A stretch of 64,000 nucleotides of DNA, taken from Escherichia coli (GTDB lineage: Bacteria; Pseudomonadota; Gammaproteobacteria; Enterobacterales; Enterobacteriaceae). Under the pieces are notes generated by a model. That model saw only the letters and a list, made by a program, of their open reading frames with translations, did not search any database and was not told the DNA's origin. The translations under genes and the position numbers were made by a program. Positions 3,310 to 38,735 of the stretch are shown here, one piece after another. The first letter of the stretch is position 1. Every line of letters begins with the position of its first letter. Location: assembly GCF_001677475.2 (NCBI RefSeq), contig NZ_CP015229.1. One strand, written 5' to 3'.

Positions 3310-5607
3310 ATGACGAATCGTATCTCTCGCCTCAAAACTGCACTGTTTGCCAATACCCGTGAAATCTCGCTGGAGCGGGCGCTGCTTTATACCGCCAGCC
3401 ATAAGCAAACCGAAGGCGAACCGGTGATTATTCGTCGGGCAAAAGCCACGGCGTATATCCTTGAACATGTTGAAATTTCGATTCGTGATGAAGAACTGAT
3501 TGCTGGTAACCGCACCGTAAAACCTCGCGCCGGGATTATGTCGCCGGAAATGGATCCTTACTGGTTGCTGAAAGAGCTGGAGCAATTCCCGACGCGACCG
3601 CAGGATCGCTTTGCTATCAGTGAAGAAGATAAACGTATCTACCGCGAAGAGTTGTTCCCGTACTGGGAAAAACGTTCGATGAAAGATTTCATCAACGGGC
3701 AGATGACGGATGAAGTAAAAGCCGCAACCAGCACGCAGATTTTCAGCATCAACCAGACGGATAAAGGCCAGGGGCACATTATTATTGATTACCCACGCCT
3801 GTTGAATCACGGGCTGGGGGAGCTGGTGGCACAGATGCAGCAACATTGTCAGCAACAGCCGGAGAATCACTTTTATCAGGCCGCGCTGTTACTGCTGGAA
3901 GCTTCACAAAAACACATTTTGCGTTACGCCGAACTGGCAGAAACGATGGCGGCAAACTGCACCGATGCCCAGCGTCGCGACGAATTGCTGACTATTGCGG
4001 AGATCTCCCGCCATAACGCGCAACATAAGCCGCAGACGTTCTGGCAGGCGTGCCAGTTATTCTGGTACATGAACATCATTCTGCAATACGAATCCAACGC
4101 CAGTTCGCTGTCGTTAGGGCGCTTCGACCAGTATATGTTGCCGTTCTATCAGACATCATTAACCCAGGGCGAAGACCCGGCGTTCCTGAAAGAACTGCTC
4201 GAATCTTTATGGGTGAAGTGCAACGACATCGTGCTGTTACGCTCCACCAGCAGCGCGCGCTATTTCGCAGGTTTCCCGACCGGCTATACCGCGCTGCTCG
4301 GCGGTTTAACGGAAAACGGACGTAGTGCGGTGAACGTGCTTTCGTTCCTCTGCCTCGACGCCTATCAAAGCGTGCAATTACCGCAACCGAACCTGGGCGT
4401 GCGCACTAACGCCTTGATCGACACGCCGTTCCTGATGAAAACCGCAGAAACCATTCGCCTCGGCACCGGTATTCCGCAAATCTTTAACGATGAAGTGGTG
4501 GTGCCAGCGTTCCTCAACCGTGGCGTTTCGCTGGAAGATGCGCGCGACTATTCAGTAGTGGGCTGTGTGGAATTATCTATTCCCGGCAGAACCTACGGCT
4601 TGCATGACATCGCGATGTTTAACCTGCTGAAAGTGATGGAAATCTGCCTGCATGAAAATGAAGGCAATGCTGCGCTGACTTATGAAGGTTTACTGGAGCA
4701 GATCCGCGCCAAGATCAGCCACTACATCACCCTGATGGTTGAGGGCAGCAATATTTGCGATATCGGTCACCGTGACTGGGCACCTGTACCGCTGCTCTCA
4801 TCGTTTATCAGCGATTGTCTGGAAAAAGGCCGCGATATTACCGATGGCGGTGCGCGTTATAACTTCTCCGGCGTACAGGGGATCGGTATCGCCAACCTGA
4901 GCGATTCTCTCCATGCGTTGAAAGGTATGGTTTTTGAGCAACAGCGTTTAAGTTTTGACGAATTGCTGTCGGTATTAAAAGCCAACTTTGCAACGCCAGA
5001 AGGCGAAAAAGTCCGCGCTCGCTTAATTAACCGCTTTGAGAAATACGGTAACGATATCGACGAGGTGGATAACATTAGCGCCGAACTGTTGCGCCACTAC
5101 TGCAAAGAAGTGGAAAAATACCAGAACCCGCGCGGCGGCTACTTCACGCCGGGATCGTATACCGTTTCTGCTCACGTCCCGTTGGGATCGGTGGTTGGCG
5201 CGACGCCAGACGGTCGTTTTGCCGGGGAACAACTGGCAGACGGCGGCTTGTCACCTATGCTGGGTCAGGACGCACAAGGGCCAACGGCGGTACTGAAGTC
5301 AGTCAGTAAGCTCGATAATACGCTGCTGTCTAACGGTACGTTGCTGAACGTGAAATTCACTCCGGCGACCCTGGAAGGTGAAGCGGGATTACGCAAACTG
5401 GCCGACTTCTTACGGGCGTTTACCCAGCTTAAGTTGCAGCATATTCAGTTTAACGTGGTGAACGCCGACACGTTGCGGGAAGCGCAACAGCGCCCACAAG
5501 ATTATGCCGGGCTGGTGGTGCGCGTTGCCGGATACAGCGCCTTCTTTGTCGAATTGTCGAAGGAGATCCAGGATGACATCATCCGCCGGACAGCGCATCA
5601 GCTGTAA
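3310..5607 (+). CDS. pflD: Glycyl radical enzyme (annotated formate acetyltransferase 2)
   Basis: 765-aa ORF; C-terminal glycyl radical motif RVAGYSAFF; catalytic-loop-like GCVE. Confidence 0.93.
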   Translation: MTNRISRLKTALFANTREISLERALLYTASHKQTEGEPVIIRRAKATAYILEHVEISIRDEELIAGNRTVKPRAGIMSPEMDPYWLLKELEQFPTRPQDRFAISEEDKRIYREELFPYWEKRSMKDFINGQMTDEVKAATSTQIFSINQTDKGQGHIIIDYPRLLNHGLGELVAQMQQHCQQQPENHFYQAALLLLEASQKHILRYAELAETMAANCTDAQRRDELLTIAEISRHNAQHKPQTFWQACQLFWYMNIILQYESNASSLSLGRFDQYMLPFYQTSLTQGEDPAFLKELLESLWVKCNDIVLLRSTSSARYFAGFPTGYTALLGGLTENGRSAVNVLSFLCLDAYQSVQLPQPNLGVRTNALIDTPFLMKTAETIRLGTGIPQIFNDEVVVPAFLNRGVSLEDARDYSVVGCVELSIPGRTYGLHDIAMFNLLKVMEICLHENEGNAALTYEGLLEQIRAKISHYITLMVEGSNICDIGHRDWAPVPLLSSFISDCLEKGRDITDGGARYNFSGVQGIGIANLSDSLHALKGMVFEQQRLSFDELLSVLKANFATPEGEKVRARLINRFEKYGNDIDEVDNISAELLRHYCKEVEKYQNPRGGYFTPGSYTVSAHVPLGSVVGATPDGRFAGEQLADGGLSPMLGQDAQGPTAVLKSVSKLDNTLLSNGTLLNVKFTPATLEGEAGLRKLADFLRAFTQLKLQHIQFNVVNADTLREAQQRPQDYAGLVVRVAGYSAFFVELSKEIQDDIIRRTAHQL

Positions 5608-30054: not shown

Positions 30055-30247
30055 CTTGCTGGTTTGTGAGTGAAAGTCACCTGCCTTAATATCTCAAAAC
30101 TCATCTTCGGGTGACGTTTGAGATATTTGCTCTTTAAAAATCTGGATCAAGCTGAAAATTGAAACACTGAACAACGAAAGTTGTTCGTGAGTCTCTCAAA
30201 TTTTCGCAACACGATGATGAATCGAAAGAAACATCTTCGGGTTGTGA

Positions 30248-36951: not shown

Positions 36952-36986
36952 TTGCATGAACTCGCATGTCTCCATAGAATGCGCGC
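36952..36986 (+). promoter_or_regulatory. Promoter of the thrU-tyrU-glyT-thrT-tufB operon
   Basis: -35 TTGCAT (36952-36957), 17-bp spacer, -10 TAGAAT (36975-36980), GCGC discriminator; AT-rich upstream tract. Confidence 0.75.
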
Positions 36987-36994
36987 TACTTGAT

Positions 36995-37070
<76 letters not shown>

Positions 37071-37078
37071 TCAAGTCC

Positions 37079-37163
<85 letters not shown>

Positions 37164-37279
37164 ATTTCGGCCACGCGATGGCGTAGCCCGAGACGATAAG
37201 TTCGCTTACCGGCTCGAATAAAGAGAGCTTCTCTCGATATTCAGTGCAGAATGAAAATCAGGTAGCCGAGTTCCAGGAT

Positions 37280-37354
<75 letters not shown>

Positions 37355-37360
37355 AGATGT

Positions 37361-37436
37361 GCTGATATAGCTCAGTTGGTAGAGCGCACCCTTGGTAAGG
37401 GTGAGGTCGGCAGTTCGAATCTGCCTATCAGCACCA
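37361..37436 (+). tRNA. thrT: tRNA-Thr
   Basis: GCTGATATAGCTCAGTTGGTAGAGCGCACCCTTGGTAAGGGTGAGGTCGGCAGTTCGAATCTGCCTATCAGCACCA. Confidence 0.98.

Positions 37437-37514: not shown

Positions 37515-38735
<1,221 letters not shown>

What the first reader, a model, noticed from the sequence alone, without database searches (positions are those of the whole stretch)
37164..37279. 116-bp tyrU-glyT spacer inside the tRNA-tufB operon
The tRNAs are otherwise packed within 6-9 bp of each other, but tyrU and glyT are separated by 116 bp of unique sequence (atttcggccacgcgatggcgtagcccgag..). In K-12 this spacer has been annotated with a tiny ORF (tpr). Here no convincing ORF is visible by eye (ATGGCGTAG is immediately terminated), so the spacer may instead be a processing or structural element.
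Basis: partly seen in the sequence, partly recalled or inferred. Interest (0 to 1): 0.2.

Follow-up and report, generated by a model that had tools for sequence, protein, structure and literature searches.

The report
Conserved structured spacer in tRNA-tufB operon
The 116-base gap between the tyrosine and glycine tRNA genes of the E. coli tufB operon is real, non-coding and under strong selection: it folds into three hairpins and ends in a 12-base motif that is near-invariant across enterobacteria, so it most likely guides cutting of the tRNA precursor rather than encoding the 'tpr' peptide, which lies at another locus.

Summary
ARAGORN places thrU-8-tyrU-116-glyT-6-thrT, followed by tufB, and the spacer is window 37164-37279.

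The 'tpr' attribution is wrong. In K-12, tpr (b1229) and rttR lie after tyrV at 1.287 Mb, and nothing is annotated in the tyrU-glyT spacer in K-12 or under the listed matches from 5,420 complete E. coli genomes.

There is no ORF. All three + frames carry stops, the longest complete ORF is 4 codons, and 27 of 64 related spacers have no ATG.

The spacer is constrained non-coding RNA:
- It is 112/116 identical to Salmonella, against 61% for the neighbouring coaA-thrU intergenic DNA.
- Two of the four differences form a compensatory A-U to G-C pair.
- Across 73 distinct sequences, three hairpins are supported by covariation (25/25 pairs with double changes; 87.6% paired, against 31-47% in slid controls).
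- The 3' core GGUAGCCGAGUU is at least 97% conserved at every position across Enterobacterales and Orbales, and occurs nowhere else in 1.7 Mb.

The middle section varies by lineage; in Serratia it is a true RtT element. No Rfam family matches the E. coli spacer.

Most likely it is a processed internal transcribed spacer, cut by RNase E and RNase P. A trans-acting role or a role in glyT folding is not excluded. Interest is modest.

The parts
36995..37163 (+). thrU (36995-37070) and tyrU (37079-37163), the tRNA genes upstream of the spacer, separated by 8 nt
   Evidence: ARAGORN; Rfam tRNA model at 73.8 and 53.4 bits; both identical in Salmonella.
37164..37168 (+). U-rich start of the spacer (AUUUC) directly after the tyrU CCA; candidate RNase E-type site (A76-N|U-U-U) for releasing the tyrU 3' end
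   Evidence: T at nt 3 is invariant and T at nt 2 nearly invariant in alignment A1. 29 of 47 genera have UUU within the first 6 nt, and 26 of 47 fit A76-N|W-U-U. Actual cleavage is inferred, not shown.
37169..37188 (+). Hairpin 1: GGCCACGC-GAUG-GCGUAGCC, with an internal C.A mismatch
   Evidence: RNAalifold on the MAFFT alignment. All 7 pairs show double changes and 87.8% of cells are paired. E. coli A-U (37173/37184) is G-C in Salmonella.
37190..37215 (+). Hairpin 2: GAGACGAUAAG-UUCG-CUUACCGGCUC, with two internal mismatches in E. coli
   Evidence: RNAalifold. All 10 pairs show double changes and 90.2% of cells are paired.
37223..37235 (+). Hairpin 3: GAGAG-CUU-CUCUC. In Klebsiella and Citrobacter it is longer, A/U-rich and followed by a U run
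   Evidence: All 8 pairs show double changes and 83.6% of cells are paired on the model-fitted alignment A2. In E. coli it is not followed by a U run on the + strand, and no terminator was called on the + strand.
37246..37279 (+). 3' leader block GCAGAAUGAAAAUCAGGUAGCCGAGUUCCAGGAU, ending at the RNase P site of glyT; predicted to be single-stranded in the finished precursor
   Evidence: It stays 82-88% identical out to Yersinia and unnamed metagenomic relatives with long spacers, while the 5' two-thirds falls to 35-57%. Recognisable counterparts exist in Alteromonadales, Vibrionaceae, Pseudoalteromonas and Legionella.
37261..37272 (+). Near-invariant core GGUAGCCGAGUU. It contains an RNase E-like GAG|UU and a 7-mer (GGUAGCC) complementary to glyT nt 17-23
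   Evidence: 21 of 22 Enterobacterales species carry the exact GGTAGCCGAG, 22 of 22 carry GTAG[CT]CGAGTT, and 9 of 9 Orbales carry GTAGCCGAGTT. Each position is at least 97% conserved in 30 distinct sequences. There are 0 occurrences elsewhere in 1.7 Mb, against 3.3 expected.
37280..37436 (+). glyT (37280-37354) and thrT (37361-37436), the tRNA genes downstream, followed by the tufB leader and tufB (from 37551)
   Evidence: ARAGORN. The same glyT sequence is found in 89 of the 119 loci tabulated. ORF list.

Best explanation
The 116 nt are a non-coding internal transcribed spacer of the single thrU-tyrU-glyT-thrT-tufB transcript. They are built from three modules.

(1) A U-rich stretch directly after the tyrU CCA.

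(2) A folded core of three hairpins. This core is lineage-variable; in Serratia the same position holds an RtT element.

(3) An ancient single-stranded leader for glyT that ends in ...GGUAGCCGAG|UUCCAGGAU|glyT.

Proposed mechanism:
- RNase E cuts at the two conserved single-stranded U-containing sites, one about 1 nt after the CCA and one after GAG about 9 nt before glyT. This separates tyrU from glyT-thrT-tufB and excises a structured RNA of about 105 nt.
- RNase P then removes the short remaining leader of glyT, and exonucleases finish the tyrU 3' end.
- The hairpins keep a long untranslated stretch compact. That prevents it from interfering with folding of the neighbouring tRNAs and from offering an entry site for Rho or nucleases upstream of tufB.

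Shown here: no coding potential, purifying selection, covarying hairpins on the sense strand, and a near-invariant motif. Inferred: the identity and positions of the nuclease cuts and the protective role of the hairpins.
For: Single transcription unit: four co-oriented tRNAs, and no sigma-70-like promoter or intrinsic terminator on the + strand inside the spacer.

Not coding: stops in all three frames, longest complete ORF 4 codons, and 27 of 64 homologous spacers without any ATG.

Selection:
- 116/116 identical to E. albertii, against 85% for the upstream 200 nt and 94% for tufB third positions.
- 112/116 identical to Salmonella with no indels, against 61% for coaA-thrU intergenic DNA. That equals the 96.5% of the thrT-tufB leader, which is reported to be regulatory (Brandis 2016 as summarised in PMC12360218).

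Structure:
- 11 of 16 RNAalifold pairs are compensatory on an independent MAFFT alignment.
- On 73 distinct sequences, 25/25 pairs show double changes. 87.6% of cells are paired, against 31-47% when partners are slid. The covariation score is 0.342, against 0.04-0.09, and 0 of 500 shuffles reach it.
- G.U pairs on the sense strand number 135, against 61 A.C/C.A, so the sense RNA is the selected strand.

Motif: the core is near-invariant and unique.

Modularity: the RtT family (RF00391) scores above its gathering threshold inside the same spacer in L134 (64.3 bits) and L181 (46.6 bits), followed there by the same 3' block. The Serratia spacer is 198 nt.

Background: RNase E is known to process tRNA precursors, and it prefers a U two nucleotides downstream of the cut in single-stranded RNA (PMC5222698).
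Against: - No experimental end-mapping for this spacer was found in the searchable literature.
- RNase E-like pentamers are short and common, so their presence is weak evidence (30 of 47 genera, not far from chance).
- RNase E does not need a 12-nt invariant sequence, so the processing model under-explains the GGUAGCCGAG conservation.
- The E. coli hairpins are individually weak (fold z = -0.64).
- Highly reduced symbionts have lost the motif (P. edessiphila, Profftia) or nearly the whole spacer (Stammera, 13 nt). The element is therefore not indispensable.
Confidence: 0.55

Rival explanations
1. The excised spacer is a stable RNA that acts in trans. It would work as a sponge or regulator, as reported for the 3' external spacer of glyW-cysT-leuZ, with the invariant single-stranded GGUAGCCGAGUU as its pairing or protein-binding surface.
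For: A 12-nt near-invariant, apparently unpaired motif next to structured hairpins is the usual anatomy of a seed plus scaffold. Conservation exceeds what nuclease sites need. [quoted passage not shown]
Against: The spacer has no Rho-independent terminator or U tail of the kind typical of Hfq-dependent sRNAs. No significant complementarity of the core was found to 16S, 23S, 5S, tufB or secE-nusG RNA; the best was z = -2.05 for tufB across five targets. None was found elsewhere in the window either. No paper linking tyrU or glyT spacers to Hfq was found. Partners elsewhere in the genome could not be searched.
Confidence: 0.15
2. The 3' motif pairs transiently with the downstream tRNA-Gly while it is being transcribed: GGUAGCC with glyT nt 17-23 (GGCUAUU, D loop and 3' D stem), and CGAGUUC with nt 50-56. 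It would act as a folding guide or a timer for RNase P cleavage.
For: Of 288 7-nt windows in the four tRNAs, glyT 17-23 is the one matched by the most leaders (30 of 47 genera; mean 2.1). glyT 50-56 is second, at 26 of 47. The motif variants GGUAGCC, GGUGGCC, GGUAGUU and AAUAGCU differ only at positions where the partner is G or U, so all can still pair. Folding the leader plus the first 27 nt of glyT gives this helix at p = 0.8-0.98 in Enterobacterales, Orbales and Vibrionaceae, against 0.3-0.5 for shuffled leaders. In E. coli the helix persists in minimum-energy folds from 24 to 65 nt of glyT and is displaced once the acceptor stem can form.
Against: The same glyT sequence is found in 89 of the 119 loci tabulated, so there is no true two-sided covariation. 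G/U-rich targets are permissive. Pasteurellaceae and Aeromonas have the same glyT but lack the 7-mer. In Legionella the D loop differs (AAUGGUAGAAC) but the leader keeps a GGGUAUAGAG-type motif rather than a new complement. A phage-like contig carries the same tRNA-Gly only 3 nt after its neighbour.
Confidence: 0.12
3. The spacer is evolutionary debris: remnants of partial tRNA-Tyr or RtT-type duplications behind a tRNA-Tyr gene. It would be tolerated as long as it folds and have no function of its own.
For: All three E. coli tRNA-Tyr genes are followed by long spacers, and the tyrT locus carries four RtT repeats. Relatives have RtT units in this very spacer. The middle module differs between lineages in length and content, from 75 to 458 nt. 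By eye the 3' block resembles the variable-arm and T-arm region of tRNA-Tyr (ACAGA...GGU.CGA.U).
Against: Neutral DNA would not be 96.6% identical between E. coli and Salmonella when the adjacent intergenic DNA is 61%. It would not keep 25/25 pairs through compensatory change, nor a near-invariant 12-mer across two orders. The E. coli spacer shows no significant similarity to the tyrT locus or to the RtT or tRNA models.
Confidence: 0.1
4. The spacer encodes a very small peptide, or an element read on the opposite strand or at the DNA level.
For: Two mini-ORFs exist: ATG-GCG-TAG at 37178-37186 and ATG-AAA-ATC-AGG-TAG at 37251-37265. The minus strand of the E. coli sequence folds better than the plus strand (z = -3.44 against -0.64).
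Against: The mini-ORFs are not conserved; 27 of 64 homologues have no ATG. Across the family, G.U pairs favour the plus strand, 135 to 61. No promoter-like site on either strand lies inside the spacer. The only minus-strand terminator-like site is within the shuffle expectation.
Confidence: 0.03

Closest known systems
Internal and external transcribed spacers of polycistronic tRNA operons, removed by RNase E, RNase P and exonucleases
   Same: It lies between two co-transcribed tRNA genes. It is non-coding, has U-rich single-stranded ends next to the tRNAs, and is expected to be excised during maturation.
   Different: It is 116 nt, against 6-8 nt for its neighbours. It carries covariation-supported hairpins and a near-invariant 12-mer, and is conserved to a degree not expected of a mere linker. 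The cleavage sites are not mapped.
RtT RNA / rttR with the tpr ORF (Rfam RF00391), from the tyrT-tyrV operon
   Same: It is a processed, structured spacer RNA immediately downstream of a tRNA-Tyr gene. In Serratia and relatives an RtT unit occupies this very spacer, upstream of the same 3' block.
   Different: The E. coli tyrU-glyT spacer does not match RF00391 at E <= 10. It has no BLAST similarity to the tyrT locus beyond 6-7-mers, no copy of the tRNA-Tyr 3' end and no tpr-like ORF.
3'ETS-leuZ and the metZ-metW-metV spacers (spacer-derived sRNA sponges)
   Same: They are by-products of tRNA precursor processing that could persist as RNAs with an exposed conserved segment.
   Different: No terminator hairpin or U tail, no identified sRNA partner, and no evidence of stability or Hfq binding.
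StyR-44 (RF01830), a spacer fragment upstream of 23S rRNA (present in this window at 30132-30240)
   Same: It is a conserved, structured fragment of a stable-RNA operon spacer, catalogued as an RNA family. Its authors could not exclude that it is a processing by-product (PMC2943607).
   Different: It comes from an rRNA operon rather than a tRNA operon, and there is no sequence or structure relationship. The tyrU-glyT spacer has no Rfam family.

Membership tests
tpr / RtT RNA (RF00391) | Match to the RtT covariance model at or above the gathering score (45 bits) | tested here: not met
   No RtT hit at E <= 10 in 1.2 kb or in a 131-nt scan with lax filters. Positive controls: four hits of 133-138 bits in the tyrT locus, and hits of 64.3 and 46.6 bits in the tyrU-glyT spacers of L134 and L181.
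tpr / RtT RNA (RF00391) | Annotated tpr ORF (b1229) or rttR at this position in K-12 | tested here: not met
   NC_000913.3 has no feature between tyrU and glyT. tpr and rttR are at 1,287,066-1,287,236, after tyrV.
tpr / RtT RNA (RF00391) | Located directly downstream of a tRNA-Tyr gene | tested here: met
   The spacer starts at the base after the tyrU CCA.
tRNA-operon internal transcribed spacer | Flanked by co-oriented tRNA genes with no internal promoter or terminator | tested here: met
   ARAGORN. The consensus scan finds no + strand promoter or terminator inside 37164-37279. This is a consensus scan only.
tRNA-operon internal transcribed spacer | Endonucleolytic removal by RNase E and RNase P in vivo | not testable with these tools
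   Only sequence features compatible with it were seen: A|UUU after the CCA, GAG|UU before glyT and the glyT 5' end.
Spacer-derived sRNA sponge (3'ETS-leuZ type) | Stable excised fragment that binds Hfq and pairs with sRNA seeds | not testable with these tools
   No supplementary RIL-seq tables are held. No literature hit for tyrU with Hfq. No terminator-like 3' end.
Small protein gene | Conserved start codon and open reading frame | tested here: not met
   Stops in all three frames in E. coli, longest complete ORF 4 codons, no ATG in 27 of 64 homologues.
tRNA gene or pseudogene | Detectable by ARAGORN or the Rfam tRNA model | tested here: not met
   Nothing inside the spacer.
Intrinsic terminator or attenuator | G+C-rich stem followed by a U run on the transcribed strand | tested here: not met
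   None on the + strand in E. coli. In Klebsiella- and Citrobacter-type spacers hairpin 3 is A/U-rich and followed by UUUUUU, which was not evaluated further.

The most novel reading that the evidence does not exclude
The hairpins plus the near-invariant GGUAGCCGAGUU form an undescribed functional RNA element of the tRNA-tufB operon. One possibility is a cis-acting leader that pairs with the nascent tRNA-Gly elbow sequences to time its folding and RNase P cleavage. The other is an excised spacer RNA that acts in trans to couple tRNA and EF-Tu output to another pathway.
Probability: 0.15. Interest if true: 0.6.

Novelty: new member of a known kind. Interest (0 to 1): 0.3.

Why it matters
The tufB operon supplies EF-Tu and tRNAs that include glyT, the only tRNA-Gly(UCC) gene in E. 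coli K-12. How its dual tRNA-mRNA transcript is taken apart affects the balance of these products. The long spacer has been part of the published sequence for decades but carries no annotation and has no Rfam family. Showing that it is as conserved as the reportedly regulatory tufB leader, that it has covarying hairpins, and that it ends in a 12-nt motif fixed across two bacterial orders gives a concrete, cheap target for mutagenesis and end-mapping. It also corrects a mis-assignment (tpr) that could spread into annotations, and shows that RtT-type elements occupy this site in other genera. If the spacer is only a processing substrate, the result is ordinary.

Tried and rejected
- **tpr or RtT at this site:** rejected by the K-12 annotation, Rfam and BLAST against the tyrT locus.
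- **Resemblance of hairpin 1 to the hairpin after the tyrT CCA:** the eye-level similarity is not statistically supported.
- **Decayed tRNA gene:** not detected by ARAGORN or the tRNA model.
- **Closing stem between the spacer's 5' end (UUCGGC) and GCCGAG:** no better than controls with a shuffled 5' end (0.27 against 0.33 overall). It also competes with hairpin 1.
- **Minus-strand structure** (suggested by z = -3.44): rejected because across the family G.U pairs favour the plus strand.
- **Pairing of the block with the thrU leader** (AUCAGGUAGC against GCUACUUGAU, 10/10 in E. coli): probably coincidental. From the -10 position the transcript should start about 7 nt before thrU, and the Klebsiella/Citrobacter-type block pairs poorly.
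- **Sigma-70, sigma-54 or sigma-E promoter in the block:** no match by eye or by scan.
- **Shine-Dalgarno-like reading of (G)AGGU:** no start codon at a conserved distance or in a conserved frame.
- **Complementarity of the core to rRNAs, tufB or secE-nusG:** not significant.
- **Symbiont genomes as a natural covariation test**: mostly uninformative, because the operon is rearranged or the spacer is AT-degraded.
- **Literature searches for this spacer** (look-ups): nothing specific found.

Full report
**What is there.** The window is E. coli. The 116-nt query is 100% identical in the listed matches, at least 99% identical in 5,415 records, and present in 5,420 of 5,426 complete genomes. No annotated feature lies under any of the listed matches. 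ARAGORN gives thrU 36995-37070, tyrU 37079-37163, glyT 37280-37354 and thrT 37361-37436, and tufB starts at 37551. The Rfam scan of the whole window shows rrnB upstream, oxyS, and the btuB and thiC riboswitches, as expected for this chromosomal region.

**The tpr claim.** In NC_000913.3 nothing is annotated between tyrU and glyT. tpr (b1229) and rttR lie after tyrV in the tyrT-tyrV locus.

**Coding potential.**
- All three + frames contain stops.
- The only complete ORFs inside the spacer are ATG-GCG-TAG (37178-37186) and a 4-codon ORF (37251-37265).
- The ORFs of 20 aa or more that overlap the spacer all begin inside tRNA genes.
- Among 64 homologous spacers of 125 nt or less, 27 have no ATG, and no frame is conserved.

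**Comparative material.**
- One genome-collection scan was anchored only on the glyT-thrT junction. It returned 120 species genomes, covering 47 named gammaproteobacterial genera in the tallies.
- One metagenome scan was anchored on the 3' motif plus glyT and returned 120 more loci.
- Named Salmonella, Klebsiella, Citrobacter, Serratia, Aeromonas, Legionella and symbiont sequences came from exact-protein look-ups and from chromosomes filed as plasmids in PLSDB.
- The gene order Thr-Tyr-Gly-Thr is universal wherever the flank was available.
- In the species-genome scan the Tyr-Gly gap is never below 31 nt, while the Gly-Thr gap is 2-13 nt. The Tyr-Gly gap is 75-245 nt in Enterobacterales. A 13-nt gap was seen separately in the extremely reduced symbiont Stammera.

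**Selection.**

| Comparison | Region | Identity |
|---|---|---|
| E. coli vs E. albertii | spacer | 116/116 |
| | upstream 200 nt | 85% |
| | tufB third codon positions | 94% |
| E. coli vs Salmonella enterica | spacer | 112/116, no indels |
| | coaA-thrU intergenic DNA | 61% |
| | core promoter | 93% |
| | thrT-tufB leader | 96.5% |

The thrT-tufB leader is reported to be regulatory (PMC12360218). Of the four E. coli-Salmonella differences, two convert an A-U pair of hairpin 1 into G-C, one lies in the loop of hairpin 3, and one is the first nucleotide.

**Structure.**
- A MAFFT alignment of 42 spacers of the 87-120-nt type gave two RNAalifold hairpins, with 11 of 16 pairs kept through double changes.
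- I added the third hairpin by hand, built a covariance model and searched 90 sources.
- The model hits exactly one site per locus, the spacer. It hits nothing else in the window or in the tyrT locus.
- On the resulting 73 distinct sequences, all 25 pairs show double changes. 87.6% of cells are paired, against 31-47% when partners are slid by 1-3 columns. The covariation score is 0.342, against 0.04-0.09, and no shuffle out of 500 reaches the observed values.
- That alignment is fitted to the model, which inflates the numbers. The independent MAFFT result points the same way.

**Which strand is selected.** The E. coli sequence alone folds unremarkably on the plus strand (z = -0.64) and better on the minus strand (z = -3.44). 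That is because two mismatches, C.A and A.C, read as G.U on the other strand. Across the family, sense-strand G.U pairs outnumber A.C/C.A by 135 to 61. The sense RNA is therefore the selected molecule. Most relatives fold much better than chance; the metagenomic set has a mean z of -4.3.

**The 3' block.**
- The hairpins change sequence freely, but the last 34 nt or so do not.
- The core GGUAGCCGAGUU (37261-37272) is exact in 21 of 22 Enterobacterales species from the unbiased scan, with one C-to-U change in the 22nd. GUAGCCGAGUU is present in 9 of 9 Orbales.
- Each position is at least 97% conserved, while the flanks fall to 40-70%.
- The core occurs nowhere else in 1.7 Mb of fetched sequence.
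- Short-spacer lineages keep recognisable counterparts: Alteromonas AUGAGGUGGCCAGAGAAUUAGGAUU, Pseudoalteromonas GAGGUAGUUUAAGAAC, Vibrio AAAUAGCUCGAAGAGUU and Legionella AAGGGUAUAGAGAAAGUAGUAA.
- The ancestral spacer thus looks like a U-rich start plus this block, about 31-45 nt in all. Enterobacterales then inserted a structured module between the two.
- The inserted module is not fixed. In Serratia liquefaciens and in loci L134 and L181 it is an RtT element, above the Rfam gathering score in the two metagenomic loci, followed by the same block.

**Mechanism.** The most economical reading is a processed internal transcribed spacer.
- RNase E is known to act on tRNA precursors and prefers a U two nucleotides downstream of the cut in single-stranded RNA (PMC5222698).
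- The spacer offers A76-A|UUU at its start. UUU lies within the first 6 nt in 29 of 47 genera.
- It offers GAG|UU at the end of the invariant core, about 9 nt before glyT.
- RNase P would then remove the remaining leader.
- The hairpins plausibly keep 116 untranslated nucleotides compact.
- None of these cuts has been mapped, as far as I could find. The motif is far more conserved than a nuclease site requires.

**A folding role for the motif.** I tested whether the motif pairs with the nascent tRNA-Gly.

In favour:
- glyT nt 17-23 (GGCUAUU) is the best-matched of 288 tRNA windows, at 30 of 47 genera against a mean of 2.1. glyT 50-56 is second.
- The natural motif variants change only at wobble-tolerant positions.
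- Partial-transcript folds contain the helix.

Against:
- The same glyT sequence is found in 89 of the 119 loci tabulated, so the partner side offers almost no variation for a two-sided covariation test.
- Pasteurellaceae and Aeromonas have the same glyT but lack the 7-mer.
- In Legionella the D loop differs, yet the leader motif does not follow it.

I rate this idea, and a trans-acting role like that of 3'ETS-leuZ, as live but minor alternatives.

**Known or new.**
- The gap itself is part of the long-published operon sequence (my own knowledge, not checked here).
- No Rfam family covers it and no annotation exists.
- I found no paper that discusses its conservation or processing. The library lacks most subscription-journal papers, including the original sequencing papers.
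- I therefore file it as a new, conserved, structured member of a known kind: a tRNA-operon spacer.
- It is not RtT or tpr, not a tRNA relic detectable by the models, not an ORF, and not a terminator in E. coli.

Noticed in passing
L254 (Serratia liquefaciens), L134 4894-5009, L181 436-546: In these relatives the tyrU-glyT spacer (about 195-199 nt) contains an RtT element. It scores above the RF00391 gathering threshold in L134 and L181. In E. coli this family is found only in the tyrT-tyrV locus (four copies in L002). RtT-type units therefore sit behind different tRNA-Tyr genes in different genera.
   Followed up: partly
L004-L123 (tyrU-glyT gaps): Across the 47 named gammaproteobacterial genera in the species-genome scan, the gap after tRNA-Tyr is never below 31 nt, while the glyT-thrT gap is 2-13 nt. 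All three E. coli tRNA-Tyr genes are followed by long spacers. No explanation is established for why tRNA-Tyr in particular is always followed by a long trailer.
   Followed up: partly
window 36981-36994 against 37256-37265: The block AUCAGGUAGC is perfectly complementary (10/10, one G.U) to GCUACUUGAU, the discriminator and leader immediately upstream of thrU. Alteromonas shows a matching A-to-G / U-to-C difference. Only about 7 nt of this should be transcribed, and the pairing is poor in Klebsiella-type sequences, so it is probably coincidence.
   Followed up: partly
window 37169-37188 (alignment A2 columns 10/45): The middle of hairpin 1 carries a recurrent non-canonical A.C or C.A opposition, non-standard in 32 of 60 informative sequences. 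It may be a conserved mismatch rather than noise.
   Followed up: no
L003 (IMG/VR contig, 5148-5195): A viral-collection contig carries a tightly packed tRNA array, Met-Arg-Thr(UGU)-Gly(UCC)-Thr(GGU), with 1-6-nt gaps. Its glyT-thrT junction matched the search pattern taken from the host sequence. It has no tRNA-Tyr and no leader motif.
   Followed up: no
L252, L253, L255 (PLSDB records CP125156.1, NZ_CP151862.1, NZ_AP026896.1): Several PLSDB 'plasmid' records that carry the tRNA-tufB operon are chromosome-sized or chromosome-derived, for example a 5.37-Mb Klebsiella pneumoniae 'plasmid' and a 4.94-Mb Aeromonas caviae 'plasmid'. They are evidently mislabelled replicons.
   Followed up: no
L212, L149, L154 (metagenome contigs): Some metagenome contigs combine an E. 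coli-type thrU promoter with a Citrobacter-type or Klebsiella-like spacer. One combines a Pasteurellaceae-type promoter with the E. coli spacer. These are probably assembly chimeras formed across the identical tRNA genes, so flank-based taxonomy of these contigs is unsafe.
   Followed up: no
L244, L247, L251: In Baumannia, Gullanella and one Klebsiella assembly, secE-nusG is preceded by fusA-tuf rather than by the tRNA-tufB promoter region. This is consistent with recombination between the two tuf genes. The Klebsiella contig also shows a duplicated rplK-rplA segment and a NusG/L1 fusion call, which looks like an assembly artefact.
   Followed up: no
Klebsiella- and Citrobacter-type spacers (L252, L253, L128 and others), hairpin 3: In these genera hairpin 3 is AAAAGAGAG-AAA-UCUCUUUUUU followed by G/UU. 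This is an A/U-rich stem with a U run that resembles a weak intrinsic terminator or pause site between tyrU and glyT. The E. coli and Salmonella version lacks the U run.
   Followed up: no
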